Positions 57,047-64,000 of a stretch of DNA of 64,000 nucleotides are shown here, one piece after another (position 1 is the first letter of the stretch; each line of letters begins with the position of its first letter). The stretch covers positions 1 through 64,000 of IMG/VR virus record IMGVR_UViG_2595698760_000001; one strand, given 5' to 3'. The DNA is from a virus. Its lineage: Duplodnaviria > Heunggongvirae > Uroviricota > Caudoviricetes > Schitoviridae. The notes beneath the pieces were generated by a model. That model made no database searches, was not told where the DNA came from, and was given only the letters and a program-made list of their open reading frames with translations. A program made the position numbers and the translations under genes.

Positions 57047-59209
57047 TTAGACTACACGGTTATTTTGTTCGTTAAGATAGTTGTATCCAACTGCTCTTTC
57101 AACGTTTTCCTGCGGTACGGTCTTATCTTGTGGCGCCAGGAGAGCCTTAGTCACTTCGAGATTCTGGTTACCCTGGGCCTGAGCCTGGTCTTTTTCCATC
57201 TCACGAGCGTGCTTAGTGCCGGTCTCTTGTTCAAGGTAATCCAGGTCTTTCTTATCTGCATCACTCTGAGTCTGACGTGCTTTAGCCTGGTTCAGCTCAA
57301 TATCGGACTGCAGCTTCGCAATCTCCATCTGAGCCTTCTGCAGCTCAAGCTGTTTCATCTGCTCTGCAAACGGGTCAGGCTCAGGCTTAAAGTTACGGAT
57401 GTTTTCTGCCAGCGCCGGCATACGTTTCAGGTCAGCAATCTCACCCAGAATCATATTGGTGATGGAGGCATCCATGTTTGGCCCAATGGTCTGCAGCATA
57501 AAGCCCAGGTCTTGAGCCTTGGCGTTATCAATCTCTGCAGTGGAGATGTCCACTTCCAGGTCGAACTGACCTTTCAGGTCTTCACGCTCAACCGGTACGA
57601 AATCACGGTTAGTGACACGGATGACTTCTTTGTCAGACAGGAAGGCATAGTTCATCGCAATGAGCTTGGCGCCAATGTCTTTCATACCTTTGGCCAGACG
57701 GCGGAGGATTGCCATCTCACGTTTGGACGAGGCATCCAGAGCACCACGAATACCGGCCGCTACGTCACCGTAAGCTGAGCCAGAGATACCACCAGCAAAT
57801 GCCTTCACACCAGTCAGCGATTCAGCCTCTTGGTTCTGGAGCTGCATGATGGTAATAGCCGACTGAGGAATCTCAGGGTACGTGTGATGCACCACACCCA
57901 TACGTGGGTCGATACCCTGGTTGAACTCATAGTCCTGACCATTGTCGAAACGACGACGGTTGGTCACATCCAGCATTCCCTTGGCAATACCGGTTTGACT
58001 GTTCGCACTGCGAGCCATCAAATCGATGGTGCCACGAGTCACTGCACCCAGGATATTCTGGTGTTCTTCCAGCAATTCAGCATCTGCCTCACCATAGAGT
58101 GAGCGCTTGACCGGCAGGTAGTTGACCACGATGAACGGGAGCTTCTGGTCTGGGAACGGGTTCTCCTCCATACGGATGAGGACGTTGCCAATCCAGGTAG
58201 CCACAATCGGTTTCAGCTTGCCGTCACCTTCCACGTCATACCAGCCCCAATACTCATAGGCCACTACACGACGACGAGGTGTGTCTTTGAAGTTGAAGCT
58301 GTCCGGCGTTGAGCTGTCATGGTCAGGCTGGCTGAGCACGCTGGTACTGTCCCAGAGAACTGCATCCAGGTTCTTATACCGGCCATCCTTCAGCAGCTCT
58401 GCTTTAGAGGTTTCAAAACTCACCACCGCAAAGTTGGCTTTATCCACGTCACCCTGGCAGGACGGGTCGAAGTAGATATTCTGGTAGCTCAGAATGTCGA
58501 GGGTCGGTTCGTTAATCAGAACCTTCTCCACTTCCACCTGCTCACTGCCGGCGGCGACTGCACGGACAGGCTGGCCAGATTGCTGGAAATATTCAGCGGC
58601 CGCTTTAATGTCAGGCTGCAGTTCATTCCATCCACGAGGATTAGTGTGCTGCAGTGGCAATACCTGCATCAGCAGTTGAGCCTGCTGTTGCTGAGCCATC
58701 GGGTCATTATCCAGGACGTAGCTCCAGACCGGGACTTCCTCAAAGGCAGTCTCTGTCTCACGGCGCCAGCCCACACGAATTACCGCGGTGCCTTCATCGA
58801 CCACAGTACGAACGTAGTCATCAATGAATTTGATGCGGTTCAGCTTGGTACGGAACTGCCAGTTCAGCAGCAACTCATTCTGCTTCGCAGCATCCTGGTC
58901 TTCAAAGGTTACCGGGTAAACGTTGAACAGCTTGTCACTGGAGAGGAATGGTTCCGACAGTGCAGAGTAACGCCACTCCGCCTGGCGGCGGATTAGCTTA
59001 GGCTGAACAGAGGAGCGCCCTTTAATCTTCTGAGGCTTGGCCTTTCCCTCGATATTCATGAGGTCTTGCCACTTCTTAATCTTGGTCACCTGAGTCTGCT
59101 GGTATGGCTTCGCCGCATCGAGGTCACCCTTCAATGTCAGCAGGTCAGGTTCATTCGCCCAATCCGTGAGTTTCTCCACGGCATTGGCGGTCATGTCAGT
59201 TAATTCCAT
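57047..59209 (-). CDS. Portal protein (N4 gp59-like, 720 aa)
   Basis: Size and position upstream of the scaffold and capsid genes, in N4 order. Confidence 0.65.
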
Positions 59210-59711
59210 TGGCTTCCCCAGTGAGCTTTCTGTCAGCGTCTATTTGATTGCGGAGATTTTGGATTGTTCTGTCACGCTCTGCAAGAGTTGCCCGGAGTTC
59301 TTGAGCCAATTGTCTACCCTCGCTAAGAGTGCTGTCGAGTTTGGCTGCATACTCTGCAAGACGCTTTTGCTCAGCGGCGCTGGCTTGGGACATTGTACGA
59401 TACTTATCGGCTCGGGCCTCTGACTGGCGCACCCGGTCATCAGCACCGGACTGAGCAGCAGCAATATCAGCATCGTATTGCTCTTTACTGACTTGAGCAT
59501 TATCGCTCACCTCATTTGATTGAATGGCATGGTTCTGTTCTTTGCCCCGGTTACTTTCGGAAGCACCGACAGCTTTTTTGGCGTCTTCTGCAACAGCCAT
59601 ATTCCATTTGCTGTATACCACAGCTTTGCCGTGTTTGTACCCACCCAGGGAACCAAGAGATAAGCCGACGAGTAATGCCACCAGTACAATTGACCACAGT
59701 TGAACTTTCAT
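59196..59711 (-). CDS. i-spanin (Rz-like)
   Basis: GGGGTG Shine-Dalgarno with ATG at 59711 (the track begins at a GTG at 59735 inside the hairpin). N-terminal [20 protein letters not shown] followed by a long coiled-coil periplasmic domain. Contains the embedded Rz1-like gene. Confidence 0.65.
59240..59473 (-). CDS. o-spanin (Rz1-like lipoprotein) embedded in the +1 frame of the i-spanin gene
   Basis: [15 protein letters not shown] has a lipobox Cys. Pro-rich mature region. Wholly contained within the Rz-like ORF. Confidence 0.6.
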   Translation of the reverse strand: MLILLLLSPVLMTGCASQRPEPISIVQCPKPAPLSKSVLQSMQPNSTALLARVDNWLKNSGQLLQSVTEQSKISAIK

Positions 59712-59723
59712 ACGCACCCCATT

Positions 59724-59758
59724 AAAAAAGCCCACCGAAGTGGGCTTATTTTCTTATT
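59724..59758. terminator. Bidirectional-looking terminator (A6-AGCCCAC-CGAA-GTGGGCT followed by a T-rich tract)
   Basis: Hairpin flanked by an A-run and T-runs. It lies between the 176-aa gene stop and the Rz start on the − strand. Confidence 0.6.
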
Positions 59759-60284
59759 TGCCCGAGAGCAGTTGGTTGAACTTCTCAGCCAGGCCGTTGA
59801 AGGCTTCGGTCACCTCCTTCACGGTAGCGCCGGATTTCAGCAGCTCAACTGGCTCAATGCTCGACTTGGCAGATGCCTTGCCGTCAGTTTCACCAGAGGT
59901 CTTATCAATCAGCTTGCCCGCTTCAGAGCCGCTACCAGAGCGCAGCAGTTCCAGACCGAACGGAGACACGTAAGCGATACCGCCGGCGTGCAGAGCGATG
60001 GAGTCGAAACCTGCACGGTAGAAGTCATCAGGAGTTACCAGCTTAGGCGCTACTTCGTCTTCGCTGATTACCTGGCCTTCTGCGTCTTCATCCTGCTGGA
60101 CGATTTCACGGGCTTTTTCCTGCACGTCTTCTGCAGTGCCGGCATGTGCAGCATCGGTAGCATTCAGGTCAGAGCCAGTATCGTTTTCCACGATGACTTC
60201 TTTACCCTGAGCTTCCTGTGCATCCTTCACAGCAGCCTGTTGTTCTTCAGTTGATTGTTCAGCACTTACTTTTTTGTCAGCCAT
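59754..60284 (-). CDS. Acidic hypothetical protein (176 aa)
   Basis: Track ORF between the endolysin and spanin genes. Net acidic. Confidence 0.5.
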   Translation of the reverse strand: MADKKVSAEQSTEEQQAAVKDAQEAQGKEVIVENDTGSDLNATDAAHAGTAEDVQEKAREIVQQDEDAEGQVISEDEVAPKLVTPDDFYRAGFDSIALHAGGIAYVSPFGLELLRSGSGSEAGKLIDKTSGETDGKASAKSSIEPVELLKSGATVKEVTEAFNGLAEKFNQLLSGK

Positions 60285-60294
60285 GTGGCCTCCG

Positions 60295-60834
60295 TTATTG
60301 AACGCGTTCTTTTAACCAACCATAACCAAAGGTTTCCTGGTTCTGGTTGGCTTCCATAATATCCAGGTAGCGTGCTCCCTGAGAGCAGTTCAGCGACTTG
60401 ATTAGGACGGATTCGCCCTCAGAGCCACGCTTCGCCAGGAATGCTCGTAAGGCATTAAGGCCACGAGGGCCAATCATGCCATCAACAGCCAGGTCAGGAT
60501 ACAGAGTTCCTTTCAGGTTGAAAGCATTAAGCCATCGCTGCAGGAATTTAACTCCTACCGATGGCCCCATGTTCACCCCGATGTCCATGAGCTTGGCAGC
60601 AATATTAGCAGATACGGCAGACACTTGGTCTAGCCGAGGGCCGAACCAATAATCAGCCTCGAAGATTTCTACAGCCTGTTCCCGGGAGAGGTTACGCATG
60701 TCGCCGGTATAACCGTGGGCACGAGCTACCTTCTGGGTAATGCCCCACTTAGTGGGGCCACCTCTGTCATCCGGGTTATTGACGTAGCCGCCTTCTTTGC
60801 CAATTACTTGGTCAATGATTTGCGTCTTGTTCAT
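60295..60834 (-). CDS. Endolysin: GH108 N-acetylmuramidase-type domain with PG_binding_3 C-terminal domain
   Basis: N-terminal KEGGYVNNPDDRGGPTKWGIT is the GH108 signature. C-terminal DGMIGPRGLNAL matches the PG_binding_3 pattern. N4 gp61-like. Confidence 0.8.
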   Translation of the reverse strand: MNKTQIIDQVIGKEGGYVNNPDDRGGPTKWGITQKVARAHGYTGDMRNLSREQAVEIFEADYWFGPRLDQVSAVSANIAAKLMDIGVNMGPSVGVKFLQRWLNAFNLKGTLYPDLAVDGMIGPRGLNALRAFLAKRGSEGESVLIKSLNCSQGARYLDIMEANQNQETFGYGWLKERVQ

Positions 60835-61066
60835 CGTCTTTCACCACATGTTTTTCGACTGCCTTCTGCCGAACCAATCGGAATGCAATGCCAATGATGG
60901 CCATTCCTCTCAGCCACAACTTGGCCGTCTCGGGTAATTGGTCATGAAGCCCTGCAGCAATGACACCGTTATAAATGTCGGGGAAAACCCCGACAATTAT
61001 GAAGGCCCAAACTGTCGTCAGTTTCCACGCATGTTTCCAGTAGGAGACCAACTCAATCTTTGCCAT
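60812..61066 (-). CDS. Holin (84 aa, 2 predicted TM)
   Basis: Two TM helices and a charged C-terminus. Overlaps the endolysin start. Confidence 0.55.
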   Translation of the reverse strand: MAKIELVSYWKHAWKLTTVWAFIIVGVFPDIYNGVIAAGLHDQLPETAKLWLRGMAIIGIAFRLVRQKAVEKHVVKDDEQDANH

Positions 61067-61328
61067 GGCCTAAGTCCTGCAGACGCTTTTCCATGTTATC
61101 AACACGGTAACCCAACAGAGAAATATCACGCTGAGTATCTGTTGCTGTTTTAGCCAGAATACTAACTGTGCTCCGCAACTCAGTAACCGTGTCTTTCAAT
61201 ACACCTACCGTGAAGTAAAGCTGCACCGCAGCCCACAGAATAGGAATCGAAATAGTGATTAACCAGGTGATTGGTAACCGCATCTCAAAGATACGAGTCG
61301 GCTGCTGTTGAGTATCTCTTGCTTCCAT
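61053..61328 (-). CDS. Membrane protein (91 aa, 1 TM plus coiled-coil); possible antiholin or lysis regulator
   Basis: Single TM followed by an amphipathic coiled-coil. Adjacent to the holin. Confidence 0.4.
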   Translation of the reverse strand: MEARDTQQQPTRIFEMRLPITWLITISIPILWAAVQLYFTVGVLKDTVTELRSTVSILAKTATDTQRDISLLGYRVDNMEKRLQDLGHGKD

Positions 61329-61337
61329 AATTTTCCC

Positions 61338-63767
61338 TTAGACGTTCTGATTCGCTGCGTTGATGTCATCAAAGTAGCGGTACATTGCGGCACAAGAGAT
61401 AGCATATTCCGCCTGCGCCCAGAAGCGATGGTACGTGAATCGTGGCGCCGCAACCGTTGTCGGGTTGTTGATATACGCCTGTACTTCACTCCAACGTGAA
61501 TCTTCTTTCAGGAAGCTGCGGAGACTAATGAAAGTAGAGGACTGGTTGATTGGGTCACCATTTGGCATGGTGCCTGTGAATTCTGTCGGCACATACACAC
61601 TATCCGCATAGCGGGTGTAGTCAGCACGAGCTTCAGAGATTCCGATACCGTGGTCATCCTTATAGTTAGTCCAAATGCGGTCGAGCAATTGCTTGGCCAC
61701 TTTGTACGCATTTCTTGCTGTGAATGATGAGTTCGGAATCACATCATCAAATTTACCCATGAGACGTTTTGCCTGAGCATACGTCGTCAACAGATATGCA
61801 GTCGATGCGGCCACCCCTAAGTCAGGACTGTACGTTGCAACTGTGCAGTGCAGGTTCGGGTTAGGCACACTCGAAGCGTTCCAGAAATTAGCATAACTTC
61901 CAGTGCCATCCCAGTTCGACGAGGGAATATACTCGTAAACACCCTCTGAATTAGGTCGTGTGGTCGTTTGTCCATCAACTGGCGTAGTGCTAGTCCATGA
62001 CAAATCCGACGGCACTGAAAAGCTCCCAGACGTAATGGTGATGTTCTTCAGGAACCATACCACCAGGCGGTCAAGGATAATCTCCAGGTTAGGGCGAATC
62101 TCTACTGCCAGGGCAGTGTTCTTATTGGCCACTTCCAGGAACAGGTCTGCAGTGCGGCCCTGGCCCCATGACTGGAATCCAGCCCATTTGTTTGATGGCG
62201 GGTCATGCCATACCGGCGAGTACGTGTAGACCATGCCATAAAACTTGGCCTTCTCACGGCCATCACTAGGCGTCTCATAACGCGCATTCCATGAGTTGGT
62301 GACACCACCAGCAATGGCACCTTCCGGTGACTGGAGCCAACGAATCATTTCAATCTGACGGTAGAGTGAGCTTTTCCAGATGTCACCTGCTGAGGTACTC
62401 AGTGGTTTCATGCCGCCGCCACCGGTAGCCAGAGCGTATGCCGTGGACAGTCCCTGGTAACCCTGGTGCGATTCAGAGCAGCCAATACGGTAGCCCCAAC
62501 TTGCAGACTCACCGGTAGCAGGAACTTCACCACCCCAGGCGCCGTACCAGTTAATCAGGTAATGGCATGAGGCATACGGGTTCGACTGAGTAGCGCCCAC
62601 CAGGTTATTGCCAATCTGACGGAAGTATTTGTCAAAGAGGTTGTAACGCAGGTAGTCACCCATCTTCATGGCACGGTCAGTCGAGTCAGAGATGACCTCA
62701 TTTTTACCCTGTTCTGTGGCAAACTTCTTGGCCCAGAATGCCCATTGGATAGCGCGTACTTCAGCATCCGGCGCATTGGTATAGCCCCACTTTTTGCCCC
62801 AATCGAATGGTGCATCGGGATACCATTGCTTGCCCTGAGAGAACAGCGGGTCATAGCCATAGATGGAACCACCGTTCTGCCAGTCATTCCAGCATGGGTG
62901 TGTCACCGTCTCAAACGAGGACTCCTGCTTACCGCGCTCATAGGTGTTGATGTACACGTTCTTCTTCGAGCCATCACCATTCTTGAAGCCGTAACCACCT
63001 TCGACGTCGATAATCCAGTGCATGAGGTACATGCGTGGATTGCCATACGTTGCCATCAGTTCACCGTACAGCGGGTCAAATCCTTTGGCTGCAGTTGGTT
63101 CACCCAGTCGTGGGTAGTCAGACGGCAGGTCACCTTCCGCTGTATAGTCAGCAGGAGATTTAGGGTCATAAATACCGACCGGCTGGTTAGTGGCCGACGG
63201 CACATAATACTTCTCAATGACATCCCAGGAATTGTTGTAGCCATCCCAGTTGCCAGAGACATACCCTTTCCAGGCTTCCAGACCAACCCAGAACGATGCT
63301 GTCTCTGATACCGACTCTCCGCCGTAGTCCGGCGCTTCGTTGATAATCAGGCTGTCGATTGCTGCAATATGCAGTGGAATCACATTCAGCTCAGTGGCTC
63401 CGGTCTGTGGGCCGAAGTATTTATTCTCCGGTTTATGCACCGAATCGTAGATGTAGTTGAAGCGAGACAGATACGAGTTCGGGTCACCGGGAATTGTTAC
63501 CTGGCCACGTTCCTGCAGAATGGTGGCATTGGTCGGGGTCTTCAGCTTCAGATAAAAGTTAGCTGTTTCCCGGGCAGTATCGTCATCACGTAGAGTGACG
63601 GTCACTTCTTTAGTGAGTTCCCCTGGTGCAAACGTCAGAGTTCCGGTAACTGAGGTGTAGTCACCGTTGGCAGCTTTAGCTGTGCCGTCAACGGTTTCAT
63701 AACCAACGGTTACCGTCTCACCATACGCTCGGCTGAGGGTTACCTCAAAAGCGGCAAGACGGGCCAT
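61338..63767 (-). CDS. Late protein with N-terminal Calx-β domain and GH48-like (α/α)6 glycoside hydrolase domain (809 aa); candidate virion-associated polysaccharide depolymerase
   Basis: N-terminal ETVTVGYETVDGTAKAANGDYTSVTGTLTFAPGELTKEVTVTLRDDD fits the Calx-β pattern. NEAPDYGGESVSETASFWVGLEA resembles the GH48 catalytic-acid region [22 protein letters not shown]. Aromatic-rich throughout. Confidence 0.5.
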   Translation of the reverse strand: MARLAAFEVTLSRAYGETVTVGYETVDGTAKAANGDYTSVTGTLTFAPGELTKEVTVTLRDDDTARETANFYLKLKTPTNATILQERGQVTIPGDPNSYLSRFNYIYDSVHKPENKYFGPQTGATELNVIPLHIAAIDSLIINEAPDYGGESVSETASFWVGLEAWKGYVSGNWDGYNNSWDVIEKYYVPSATNQPVGIYDPKSPADYTAEGDLPSDYPRLGEPTAAKGFDPLYGELMATYGNPRMYLMHWIIDVEGGYGFKNGDGSKKNVYINTYERGKQESSFETVTHPCWNDWQNGGSIYGYDPLFSQGKQWYPDAPFDWGKKWGYTNAPDAEVRAIQWAFWAKKFATEQGKNEVISDSTDRAMKMGDYLRYNLFDKYFRQIGNNLVGATQSNPYASCHYLINWYGAWGGEVPATGESASWGYRIGCSESHQGYQGLSTAYALATGGGGMKPLSTSAGDIWKSSLYRQIEMIRWLQSPEGAIAGGVTNSWNARYETPSDGREKAKFYGMVYTYSPVWHDPPSNKWAGFQSWGQGRTADLFLEVANKNTALAVEIRPNLEIILDRLVVWFLKNITITSGSFSVPSDLSWTSTTPVDGQTTTRPNSEGVYEYIPSSNWDGTGSYANFWNASSVPNPNLHCTVATYSPDLGVAASTAYLLTTYAQAKRLMGKFDDVIPNSSFTARNAYKVAKQLLDRIWTNYKDDHGIGISEARADYTRYADSVYVPTEFTGTMPNGDPINQSSTFISLRSFLKEDSRWSEVQAYINNPTTVAAPRFTYHRFWAQAEYAISCAAMYRYFDDINAANQNV

Positions 63768-63776
63768 TTGTGCTCC

Positions 63777-64000
63777 TTAAGCAATAAGATTAGTCAGTAG
63801 GTTCAGCTTGACCGTCTGAGGTGTTGTCCAGTCATCCTGCACAAGCCCACCGGTATCACCGCTGTTCGGATTGTAACACCAGTAGGCGAAACTAATCCCC
63901 TGCCAGTTACTGTTCGGTCGTTCTGTTCCAGACACAGTGTTGTCCAGGTTCTTGTCGAAGTTCATGTACTTAATGAGCTGAGCCAACCATTGCCGCTCGT
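63777..64000 (-). CDS. 3' end of a late (probably tail) gene; the N-terminus lies beyond the window
   Basis: ORF open to the window edge. Stop at 63777. Confidence 0.4.
   Translation of the reverse strand, partial: ERQWLAQLIKYMNFDKNLDNTVSGTERPNSNWQGISFAYWCYNPNSGDTGGLVQDDWTTPQTVKLNLLTNLIA

What the first reader, a model, noticed from the sequence alone, without database searches (positions are those of the whole stretch)
61338..63767. Late-strand 809-aa protein combining Calx-β and GH48-like cellulase-family domains
The N-terminal 100 aa fit the Calx-β pattern (VTVGYETVDGTAKAANGDYTSVTGTLTFAPGELTKEVTVTLRDDD). The remainder is aromatic-rich and contains NEAPDYGGESVSETASFWVGLEA, resembling the catalytic-acid region of family-48 glycoside hydrolases (processive cellobiohydrolases or chitinase-like enzymes). 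GH48 domains are rare in phages. In a tail or late-gene context this would be a virion-borne depolymerase. It might target bacterial cellulose or another β-glucan matrix of the host biofilm, or a capsule. Alternatively it could be a lysis-associated enzyme released at burst.
Basis: partly seen in the sequence, partly recalled or inferred. Interest (0 to 1): 0.7.

Follow-up and report, generated by a model that had tools for sequence, protein, structure and literature searches.

The report
Known phage S6 GH48 cellulase gene
The gene is gp094 of the fire-blight phage S6, a family-48 cellulase with a small N-terminal Calx-β domain; this domain layout is already published, and it sits beside the phage's experimentally proven GH5 cellulase, which fits a phage that needs its host's cellulose coat to infect.

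Summary
ORF 61338-63767 (-) encodes 809 aa with a Calx-β domain (aa 8-81, Pfam E=1e-16) and a complete GH48 domain (E=1.5e-198). An AlphaFold model superposes on C. bescii GH48 (TM 0.94). The catalytic acid E155 and base D334 are conserved.

It is not new. The window is bases 1-64000 of Erwinia phage vB_EamP-S6 (HQ728266) and the ORF is gp094. A 2022 commentary (PMC9544554) on Knecht et al. 2022 already describes its Calx-β+GH48 layout. According to that commentary, S6 needs host bacterial cellulose as its first receptor and the neighbouring gp095 (GH5) degrades carboxymethylcellulose. Later papers report cellulase activity for S6 virions. gp094's own activity and its place in the virion remain untested.

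What I add:
- gp094 belongs to a large clade of about 800-aa Calx-β-GH48 proteins without signal peptides, found on phage and prophage contigs.
- In 25 of 25 loci examined a GH5 cellulase gene lies just upstream. These include N4-like, Parlo/SU10-like, Hena1-like, tape-measure-bearing and very large contigs. One phage fuses the two enzymes.
- The Calx-β N-terminus is shared with unrelated tail-module proteins, so it is probably a virion or adaptor docking module.

Verdict: a real feature, correctly interpreted and already known. Interest is low to moderate.

The parts
61338..63767 (-). gp094 of Erwinia phage vB_EamP-S6 (AEJ81613.1), 809 aa: Calx-β plus GH48 glycoside hydrolase
   Evidence: ORF. 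100% identical to HQ728266/NC_019514 at 61341-63767, annotated 'glycoside hydrolase'. Pfam hits.
63483..63767 (-). N-terminal Calx-β β-sandwich (aa 1-95), proposed virion or adaptor docking module. It carries a DDD motif at aa 61-63.
   Evidence: Pfam PF03160, aa 8-81. The model has six β-strands spanning aa 3-92. Foldseek target-normalised TM is about 0.7 to Calx-β/NCX CBD structures. It is 34-47% identical to the N-termini of unrelated tail-module proteins of phage Parlo and of a Novosphingobium prophage.
61341..63482 (-). GH48 (α/α)6-barrel catalytic domain (aa ~96-809), with acid E155 (codon 63303-63305) and base D334 (codon 62766-62768)
   Evidence: PF02011, E=1.5e-198. phmmer against PDB gives 6d5d E=6.5e-148. 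Foldseek to 4l0g gives TM 0.94 and rmsd 2.4 Å. E144, E155 and D334 are invariant in 30 sequences. D334 aligns with N224 of the T. fusca D224N mutant 4JJJ.
63777..64000 (-). 3' end of gp095 (full gene 63777-66125 in the phage record; it runs off the window): two Ig-like domains plus a GH5 cellulase. It is the conserved partner gene of gp094.
   Evidence: Annotation. Pfam Cellulase E=5e-44 plus Ig-like domains. Experimentally degrades carboxymethylcellulose according to PMC9544554. A GH5 gene lies upstream of the GH48 gene in 25 of 25 loci.
59196..61328 (-). Downstream lysis cassette in the same late transcription direction: gp093 (small protein, no family match), gp092 (holin), gp091 (GH108 endolysin), gp090 (unknown), gp089 (Rz spanin with an embedded Rz1-like ORF)
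   Evidence: Pfam. PHROGs. Annotation.

Best explanation
gp094 is a catalytically competent family-48 cellulase, of the inverting, processive, reducing-end cellobiohydrolase type. It is made late in infection together with the GH5 endoglucanase gp095. The two most likely form a two-enzyme endo/exo cellulase set carried on the S6 tail appendages. The set would bind and cut through the bacterial cellulose that Erwinia amylovora secretes through its bcs system, so that the virion can reach the outer membrane. The N-terminal Calx-β β-sandwich is most likely an exchangeable docking module that attaches the barrel to the tail or to an adaptor (gp095 or gp096), rather than a calcium sensor.

Shown here: domain identity, fold, conserved catalytic residues, the conserved GH5-GH48 gene pair, and the shared N-terminal module.
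From the literature: the cellulose requirement of S6, the activity of gp095, and cellulase activity reported for virions.
Inferred: gp094 activity, endo/exo synergy, virion attachment through Calx-β.
For: Domain, fold and active site:
- Pfam GH48 E=1.5e-198 and Calx-β E=1e-16.
- PDB sequence hits to GH48 cellobiohydrolases, E~1e-148.
- AF2 model pLDDT 87 and pTM 0.86, superposing on 4l0g/6d5d at TM 0.94.
- E144, E155 and D334 invariant across phage and classical GH48 sequences. D334 aligns with the mutated base of 4JJJ.

Host cellulose as target:
- S6 needs host bcs cellulose and gp095 is an active cellulase (PMC9544554). Cellulase activity is reported for S6 virions (PMC13220884).

Partnership with GH5:
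- A GH5 gene sits just upstream on the same strand in 25 of 25 loci from very different phages.
- P0060 is a natural GH5-GH48 fusion.

Tail location:
- The cassette follows Baseplate_J and precedes tail-fibre genes in Hena1.
- It follows the SU10 adaptor genes in Parlo-like phages, whose GH5 protein starts with the 'GP4 fiber-tail adaptor gp77' domain.
- It follows the tape measure gene in L104.
- In S6 it lies next to gp096, whose N-terminus matches a PHROG 'appendage' family, and gp097, a virion structural protein.

Calx-β as a docking module:
- The Calx-β N-terminus (aa 1-93) is 34-47% identical to the N-termini of unrelated tail-module proteins.
- The whole clade lacks signal peptides and CBMs, unlike the classical bacterial GH48s sampled.
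- The N4-like phage DEV anchors its long fibre through an N-terminal 91-aa β-barrel collar (PMC10925440).
Against: - No direct activity data exist for gp094. The commentary states that only gp095 was verified and that the location of both proteins on the particle 'remains to be shown'.
- Classical tailspike depolymerases are trimeric β-helices. GH48 barrels are monomeric enzymes, so a structural role in the tail is unusual.
- In S6 the gene also abuts the lysis cassette. In the fusion-bearing phage (L002) the enzyme lacks any anchor domain and sits between the Rz gene and terS. That position fits a soluble, lysis-released enzyme.
- The Calx-β domain retains a DDD acidic motif, so a Ca2+-dependent or carbohydrate-binding role is not excluded.
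Confidence: 0.7

Rival explanations
1. gp094 is a soluble late enzyme, not part of the virion. It accumulates in the cytoplasm and is released at lysis, where it digests the cellulose biofilm matrix so that progeny phage can escape and spread.
For: - The gene is 9 nt upstream of the holin/endolysin/spanin block.
- In L002 the GH5-GH48 fusion has no N-terminal anchor and lies directly after the lysozyme and Rz genes and before terS.
- No signal peptide is present, so release would depend on lysis.
- GH48 enzymes are normally free or cellulosome-bound monomers.
Against: - In Hena1, the Parlo-like phages and the tape-measure-bearing L104 the cassette sits inside the tail module, far from any identified lysis genes.
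- The N-terminal module is shared with other tail-module proteins.
- Cellulase activity is reported for S6 virions.
- In Schitoviridae this locus is the polymorphic receptor-binding and appendage region.
Confidence: 0.2
2. gp094 is mainly a cellulose-binding receptor-binding protein. Its GH48 tunnel grips a glucan chain and hydrolysis is dispensable or vestigial.
For: [quoted passage not shown]
- Only gp095 has demonstrated activity.
Against: - The catalytic acid and base, together with about 80 further columns, are invariant between the phage clade and bona fide cellobiohydrolases. That pattern argues for purifying selection on catalysis.
Confidence: 0.07
3. The substrate is not cellulose but another β-linked polymer, such as chitin-like material or another host exopolysaccharide.
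For: From memory, some insect GH48 members are reported to be chitinases. E. amylovora also makes amylovoran and levan.
Against: - The closest solved relatives are all cellulose-active cellobiohydrolases.
- The obligate partner is a GH5 enzyme that degrades carboxymethylcellulose.
- S6 infection depends on bcs genes and is blocked by Congo red.
Confidence: 0.03

Closest known systems
Erwinia phage vB_EamP-S6 gp094 (AEJ81613.1), as described in Römling 2022 (PMC9544554) commenting on Knecht et al. 2022, Environ Microbiol 24:3436
   Same: It is the same gene, 100% identical. The published description gives an N-terminal Calx-β plus GH48 with predicted acid E155. It suggests the N-terminal domains may attach the proteins to the particle.
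   Different: Nothing differs in the sequence. The paper gives the base as D331; in my numbering residue 331 is Asn and the residue aligned with the proven base is D334. The paper says gp094 homologues are mainly in Streptomyces and Bacillus. I find that the nearest relatives form a large phage and prophage clade.
Bacterial GH48 cellobiohydrolases (C. bescii CelA GH48 module 4L0G/4EL8, C. danielii 6D5D, A. thermocellus CelS 1L1Y, R. cellulolyticum Cel48F 1F9D, T. fusca Cel48A 4JJJ)
   Same: Same (α/α)6 barrel (TM 0.90-0.94 for these entries), 37-40% identity over the structural alignment, and identical catalytic Glu and Asp.
   Different: The actinobacterial GH48s sampled carry signal peptides and CBM2 modules, and cellulosomal ones carry dockerins. 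gp094 has neither. It has an N-terminal Calx-β domain and several short insertions, with low-confidence loops at 312-320 and 426-430. It is phage-encoded and targets the host's own cellulose rather than plant biomass.
S6 gp095 (Ig-like domains plus GH5 endoglucanase), the experimentally verified S6 cellulase
   Same: Adjacent, co-oriented late gene. Same presumed substrate. Conserved as a pair with GH48 in every locus examined.
   Different: A different fold and family (GH5 against GH48). By general knowledge, GH5 enzymes are retaining and this one is annotated as an endoglucanase. Different N-terminal domains (Ig-like, or gp77-adaptor in Parlo-like phages). It has experimental support, which gp094 lacks.
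Branched tail-fibre and appendage systems of N4-like phages (G7C gp63.1/gp66, DEV gp53, N4 gp65/gp66)
   Same: Same polymorphic locus between the terminase and portal genes. An enzymatic domain (SGNH esterase) is carried on appendages. A small N-terminal β-domain is used for attachment.
   Different: Those proteins are trimeric fibres or spikes that deacetylate or bind LPS or other exopolysaccharide. gp094 is a glycoside-hydrolase barrel with no predicted coiled-coil or β-helix.
Erwinia phage L1 DpoL1 amylovoran depolymerase
   Same: A tail-associated exopolysaccharide depolymerase of an E. amylovora podophage that mediates adsorption.
   Different: A different substrate (amylovoran), a different phage family (T7-like), and no sequence relationship detected here.

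Membership tests
Glycoside hydrolase family 48 (CAZy GH48 / Pfam PF02011) | Sequence match to the family profile above the curated threshold over the whole catalytic domain | tested here: met
   661.7 bits against a cut-off of 25, E=1.5e-198, two stretches covering aa 99 to about 800. phmmer to 14 distinct PDB GH48 sequences, E from 1e-107 to 1e-148.
Glycoside hydrolase family 48 (CAZy GH48 / Pfam PF02011) | (α/α)6-barrel fold | tested here: met
   AF2 model pLDDT 87.3. Foldseek target-normalised TM 0.84-0.94 and rmsd 2.3-3.3 Å to 17 GH48 crystal or cryo-EM structures.
Glycoside hydrolase family 48 (CAZy GH48 / Pfam PF02011) | Catalytic acid Glu (CelS Glu87; Cel48F Glu55 from memory) | tested here: met
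   E155 lies in ...GESVSE(155)TASF... and aligns with the Glu of ...[10 protein letters not shown]... in 6d5d and 4l0g. It is invariant in 30 sequences. The identity of the acid is taken from PMC13363691.
Glycoside hydrolase family 48 (CAZy GH48 / Pfam PF02011) | Catalytic base Asp (T. fusca Cel48A D224/D225) | tested here: met
   D334 in YTNAPD(334)AE aligns with N224 of the D224N mutant structure 4JJJ (YTNAPNAD). It is invariant in 30 sequences.
Glycoside hydrolase family 48 (CAZy GH48 / Pfam PF02011) | Inverting, processive release of cellobiose from the reducing end of cellulose | not testable with these tools
   This needs enzyme assays. The literature states that gp094 is only predicted.
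Calx-β domain (Pfam PF03160) | Profile match above threshold and a β-sandwich fold like NCX CBD or integrin β4 Calx-β | tested here: met
   61.4 bits against a cut-off of 27. Target-normalised TM about 0.65-0.74 and rmsd about 2 Å to 3fq4, 3gin, 3ead and 3e9t.
Calx-β domain (Pfam PF03160) | Ca2+-coordinating acidic cluster that actually binds Ca2+ | tested here: inconclusive
   A DDD motif at aa 61-63 followed by E67 is present. Binding cannot be assessed, and the integrin β4 Calx-β structures (3fq4, 3h6a) show the fold outside Na+/Ca2+ exchangers.
Virion-borne (tail-associated) polysaccharide depolymerase | Encoded within the tail or receptor-binding gene module | tested here: met
   S6: between gp096/gp097 (PHROG 'appendage' and virion structural protein) and the lysis block. 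Hena1: after Baseplate_J and before tail-fibre genes. Parlo-like phages: after the SU10 adaptor. L104: after the tape measure.
Virion-borne (tail-associated) polysaccharide depolymerase | N-terminal attachment module shared with other tail proteins, with a variable C-terminal enzymatic domain | tested here: met
   aa 1-93 are 34-47% identical to the N-termini of Parlo gp070 (BNR/sialidase-like) and gp073 and of the Novosphingobium 716-aa and 1034-aa proteins. The remainders of these proteins are unrelated.
Virion-borne (tail-associated) polysaccharide depolymerase | Physical presence in purified virions | not testable with these tools
   Cellulase activity is reported for S6 virions (PMC13220884), but which protein is on the particle 'remains to be shown' (PMC9544554).
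Virion-borne (tail-associated) polysaccharide depolymerase | Trimeric β-helix or fibre architecture (typical of the class, not strictly defining) | tested here: not met
   The model is a β-sandwich plus an α/α barrel, with no β-helix or coiled coil.

The most novel reading that the evidence does not exclude
The obligate GH5-GH48 pair may work as a directional 'reel-in' device. The virion-borne GH5 endoglucanase nicks a nascent cellulose chain. That creates a new reducing end on the fragment still held by the Bcs synthase, because cellulose is elongated at its non-reducing end (established knowledge, from memory, not tested here). The virion-anchored GH48 is processive from the reducing end (PMC5766998). 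It threads that end and chews toward the cell, dragging the phage along the glucan to the BcsC outer-membrane pore, which the commentary proposes as a possible second receptor. The cassette is present in more than 100 protein clusters, on contigs of N4-like, SU10/Parlo-like, Hena1-like, tape-measure-bearing and very large phages. This would be a widespread mechanism for finding the cell surface.
Probability: 0.1. Interest if true: 0.75.

Novelty: already known. Interest (0 to 1): 0.3.

Why it matters
Bacterial cellulose is a common biofilm matrix component, and S6 is the founding case of a phage that uses it as a receptor. Knowing that gp094 is an intact GH48 matters for three reasons. First, it suggests that S6 carries a complete endo/exo cellulase pair rather than a single enzyme. 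Second, the GH5-GH48 cassette could serve as a genomic marker for predicting cellulose-dependent phages in metagenomes. Third, these would be compact cellulases evolved against bacterial cellulose and free of secretion signals, which could be useful as anti-biofilm reagents. The basic finding, however, adds nothing to what is already annotated and published for this phage.

Tried and rejected
- The primary paper (Knecht 2022; DOI and PMID) and Kostylev & Wilson 2011 are not held. I relied on the commentary and on citing papers.
- One literature search was unproductive because 'glycoside hydrolase' swamped it.
- BLASTP of N-terminal segments (first 130 aa) found no similarity between the DEV gp53 N-terminal barrel and S6 gp094, gp095 or gp096. 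The DEV collar analogy is therefore functional only.
- The BFVD fold search returned no GH48 structures, only local Calx-β-like hits, so it added little.
- PHROGs gave no family for gp094.
- I considered that the Calx-β and GH48 parts were split into two ORFs in L014, L015 and L018. This was rejected: Pfam on L014 shows an extra standalone 114-aa Calx-β ORF in front of a complete Calx-β-GH48 protein.
- I considered that the copies in bacterial genomes are ordinary bacterial cellulases. This was rejected for Novosphingobium, whose neighbourhood is a Parlo-like prophage with capsid, SU10 adaptor, S74 fibre chaperone and a giant polyvalent protein. For Azotobacter, Azorhizophilus, Rhodoblastus and the Segnochrobactraceae genome only the GH5 partner and Calx-β tail-module homologues were checked.
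Full report
**1. The observation**

Coordinates 61338-63767 on the minus strand encode an ATG-initiated protein of 809 aa. An AAGGAG ribosome-binding site lies 5 nt upstream, and only 9 nt separate the start from the stop codon of the preceding gene. Pfam gives Glyco_hydro_48 at 661.7 bits (cut-off 25, E=1.5e-198) and Calx-beta at 61.4 bits (cut-off 27, E=1e-16, aa 8-81). This cannot be a chance match.

**2. What the window is**

The window is bases 1-64000 of Erwinia phage vB_EamP-S6 (HQ728266.1 / NC_019514.1). This is a 74,669-bp N4-like podophage (Schitoviridae, Waedenswilvirus), and the match is 100% over 24 kb. The ORF is gp094 (AEJ81613.1), annotated 'glycoside hydrolase'. The gene upstream, gp095, occupies 63777-66125 and runs off the window. 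It carries two Ig-like domains plus a GH5 cellulase domain. Downstream lie gp093, gp092 (holin), gp091 (GH108 endolysin), gp090, gp089 (Rz spanin) and the portal gene. Upstream of gp095 lie gp096 (N-terminus matching a PHROG 'appendage' family), gp097 (virion structural protein) and the terminase.

**3. Fold and active site**

- phmmer against PDB sequences finds all known GH48 structures. The best are the Caldicellulosiruptor GH48 modules 6D5D and 4L0G, at E about 1e-148.
- An AlphaFold2 model built from a 30-sequence alignment has mean pLDDT 87.3 and pTM 0.86. It shows an N-terminal β-sandwich of six strands (aa 3-92) followed by a helix-rich barrel.
- Foldseek against the PDB gives a target-normalised TM of 0.94 and rmsd 2.3-2.4 Å to the C. 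bescii and C. danielii GH48 structures (4L0G, 6D5D, 4EL8). The N-terminal domain matches Calx-β domains at TM about 0.7.
- E144, E155 and D334 are invariant across 26 members of the phage clade and four classical actinobacterial GH48s.
- E155 aligns with the 'TSE' glutamate of the crystal-structure sequences. This is the proton donor, equivalent to CelS Glu87 (PMC13363691).
- D334 aligns with N224 of the T. fusca GH48 D224N mutant 4JJJ, which marks the catalytic base.

**4. What is already known**

- A 2022 commentary (PMC9544554) on Knecht et al. 2022 (Environ Microbiol 24:3436; not held in the library) describes gp094 as an N-terminal Calx-β domain plus GH48, with predicted acid E155.
- According to the same commentary, S6 cannot infect E. 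amylovora mutants lacking cellulose production, Congo red blocks infection, and gp095 (GH5) degrades carboxymethylcellulose. A later paper reports cellulase activity for S6 virions (PMC13220884).
- One small discrepancy: the commentary names D331 as the base. Residue 331 is Asn in my numbering, and the residue aligned with the proven base is D334.

**5. What the tools add**

(a) Relatives. The commentary says gp094 homologues are mainly in Streptomyces and Bacillus. The large protein search shows instead more than 110 clusters (at 90% identity) of about 800-aa Calx-β-GH48 proteins at 38-89% identity. Many lie on contigs of 60-77 kb. Classical CBM2-GH48 enzymes appear only at about 41% identity and below. 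Sampled clade members start at residue 1 with a motif like M-x-R-x-A-x-F-x-V-T-L-S, and none of those sampled has a signal-peptide-like N-terminus. The classical enzymes sampled carry signal peptides and CBM2 modules.

(b) The gene pair. In every locus examined a gp095-like GH5 gene lies upstream on the same strand, usually adjacent. The tally is 25 of 25:
- 15 IMG/VR contigs;
- 6 metagenome or genome contigs fetched by protein identity;
- 4 species-representative bacterial genomes.

These loci cover very different phage types:
- N4-like phages;
- Hena1-like 148-kb myophages, where the pair follows Baseplate_J and precedes tail-fibre genes;
- Parlo/SU10-like 61-64-kb podophages and a Novosphingobium prophage, where the pair follows the SU10 adaptor and the GH5 protein begins with the 'GP4 fiber-tail adaptor gp77' domain;
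- a 112-kb contig where the pair follows the tape-measure gene;
- contigs of 255 kb and 346 kb.

(c) Fusions. One phage carries a natural fusion with the order GH5, GH48, Ig-like domain (P0060, 1326 aa). It lacks the Calx-β domain. Another protein has the order Calx-β, GH48, SGNH esterase (P0097).

(d) The N-terminal module. The Calx-β N-terminus of gp094 (aa 1-93) is 34-47% identical to the N-termini of otherwise unrelated tail-module proteins. These are Parlo gp070 (BNR/sialidase-like) and gp073, and the 716-aa and 1034-aa proteins of the Novosphingobium prophage. A conserved N-terminus joined to a variable C-terminal domain is the usual signature of exchangeable phage tail-fibre and tail-spike proteins.

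(e) Bacterial genomes. Among one genome for each of 185,579 bacterial and archaeal species, the phage-type clade was found only in Azorhizophilus paspali, Azotobacter beijerinckii, Rhodoblastus acidophilus and a Segnochrobactraceae genome. Each of these has the GH5 partner. Only the best 80 of 172 hits were kept, so this is a minimum.

**6. Mechanism**

The best-supported reading has three parts. First, gp094 is an active, processive, reducing-end cellobiohydrolase; the directionality of GH48 enzymes is taken from PMC5766998. Second, it works together with the GH5 endoglucanase gp095 on the host's secreted cellulose, giving the classical endo/exo pairing. Third, both enzymes are carried on the S6 tail appendages, with the Calx-β domain docking the barrel to the tail or to an adaptor.

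The N4-like phage DEV offers a functional precedent. Its long fibre is anchored by an N-terminal 91-aa β-barrel that forms a collar around the tail (PMC10925440). No sequence similarity to that domain was found.

Shown here are identity, fold, catalytic residues, gene-pair conservation and the shared N-terminal module. Taken from the literature are the cellulose dependence of S6, gp095 activity and virion cellulase activity. Inferred are gp094 activity, the synergy and the Calx-β docking role. I put about 0.8 on 'active cellulase acting on host cellulose with gp095' and about 0.6 on 'virion-attached through Calx-β'.

**7. Rivals**

- A soluble enzyme released at lysis. This fits the adjacency to the lysis cassette in S6. 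It also fits the anchor-less fusion placed between the Rz gene and terS in L002. Confidence 0.2.
- A mainly binding, non-catalytic role. The invariant catalytic residues argue against it. Confidence 0.07.
- A substrate other than cellulose. The relatives, the partner enzyme and the host genetics all argue against it. Confidence 0.03.

**8. Novelty and score**

The feature itself is already known: it is annotated in GenBank and its domain architecture and likely role are published. The incremental additions are the large phage clade, the invariant GH5-GH48 cassette across unrelated phage types, the natural fusion, the shared Calx-β N-terminal module, and the D334 correction. I found none of these in the papers available to me. 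They extend an existing story rather than open a new one. Interest is 0.3.

The most novel reading not excluded is a 'nick and reel-in' mechanism. GH5 would create a reducing end on the synthase-tethered glucan, and the virion-anchored GH48 would process toward the cell and BcsC. I give it a probability of about 0.1; it would be interesting if true.

Noticed in passing
window 59240-59500 (-), inside gp089 (59196-59711/59735): An 86-aa ORF in another frame, embedded in the Rz spanin gene. It has a signal-peptide-like stretch ending in a lipobox-like LMTGC, followed by a Pro-rich segment. PHROGs gives weak Rz-like spanin hits (E~1e-3). It looks like an Rz1 o-spanin that is not annotated in HQ728266.
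   Followed up: partly
window 59754-60284 (-), gp090: A 176-aa acidic protein with no Pfam or PHROG family, lying between the endolysin and spanin genes. Function unknown.
   Followed up: no
window 63777-64000 (-): The ORF listed as 69 aa is really the C-terminal end of gp095, the GH5 cellulase. The reading frame stays open to the window edge and the gene continues to 66125 in the phage record.
   Followed up: yes
gp094 residue 331 against 334 (window 62766-62768 for D334): The published commentary names D331 as the catalytic base. Residue 331 is Asn in the deposited sequence. D334 is the residue that aligns with the mutated base of PDB 4JJJ.
   Followed up: yes
L002 6853-10833 (protein P0060): A natural single-chain fusion with the order GH5, GH48, Ig-like domain (1326 aa) and no Calx-β. 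It lies between the lysozyme/Rz genes and the small terminase of a different, lambdoid-looking phage contig.
   Followed up: partly
protein P0097 (1397 aa, metagenomic): A Calx-β-GH48 protein with a C-terminal GDSL/SGNH esterase domain. This could be a combined deacetylase and cellulase aimed at acetylated cellulose.
   Followed up: no
L014/L015 10001-10345, L018 8020-8370, L030 10001-10324, L024 10001-10339; Hena1 L019 14460-14813: Small standalone ORFs next to the GH48 gene. In L014, L015, L018 and L030 a ~110-aa Calx-β ORF lies directly upstream of a complete Calx-β-GH48 gene; Pfam was run on L014 only, the others are homology hits. In L024 the equivalent ORF lies inside the called GH48 ORF, so a frame break there was not ruled out. 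In Hena1 a 117-aa ORF lies directly downstream of the GH48 gene. A 117-aa 'putative tail fiber protein' of the related phage pEp_SNUABM_01 has a Calx-β-like fold, but I did not map it to that Hena1 ORF.
   Followed up: partly
L003, L102, L103, L020 (Parlo-like phages): The GH5 cellulase of these podophages begins with the Pfam 'GP4 fiber-tail adaptor gp77' domain. Several downstream tail-module proteins start with Calx-β domains. This suggests an adaptor with multiple interchangeable Calx-β-anchored appendages.
   Followed up: partly
literature (PMC13101476): The Erwinia myophage M7 is also reported to depend on cellulose. However, no GH48 homologue appears in any M7 record in the phage collection search, so it must deal with cellulose in a different way.
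   Followed up: no
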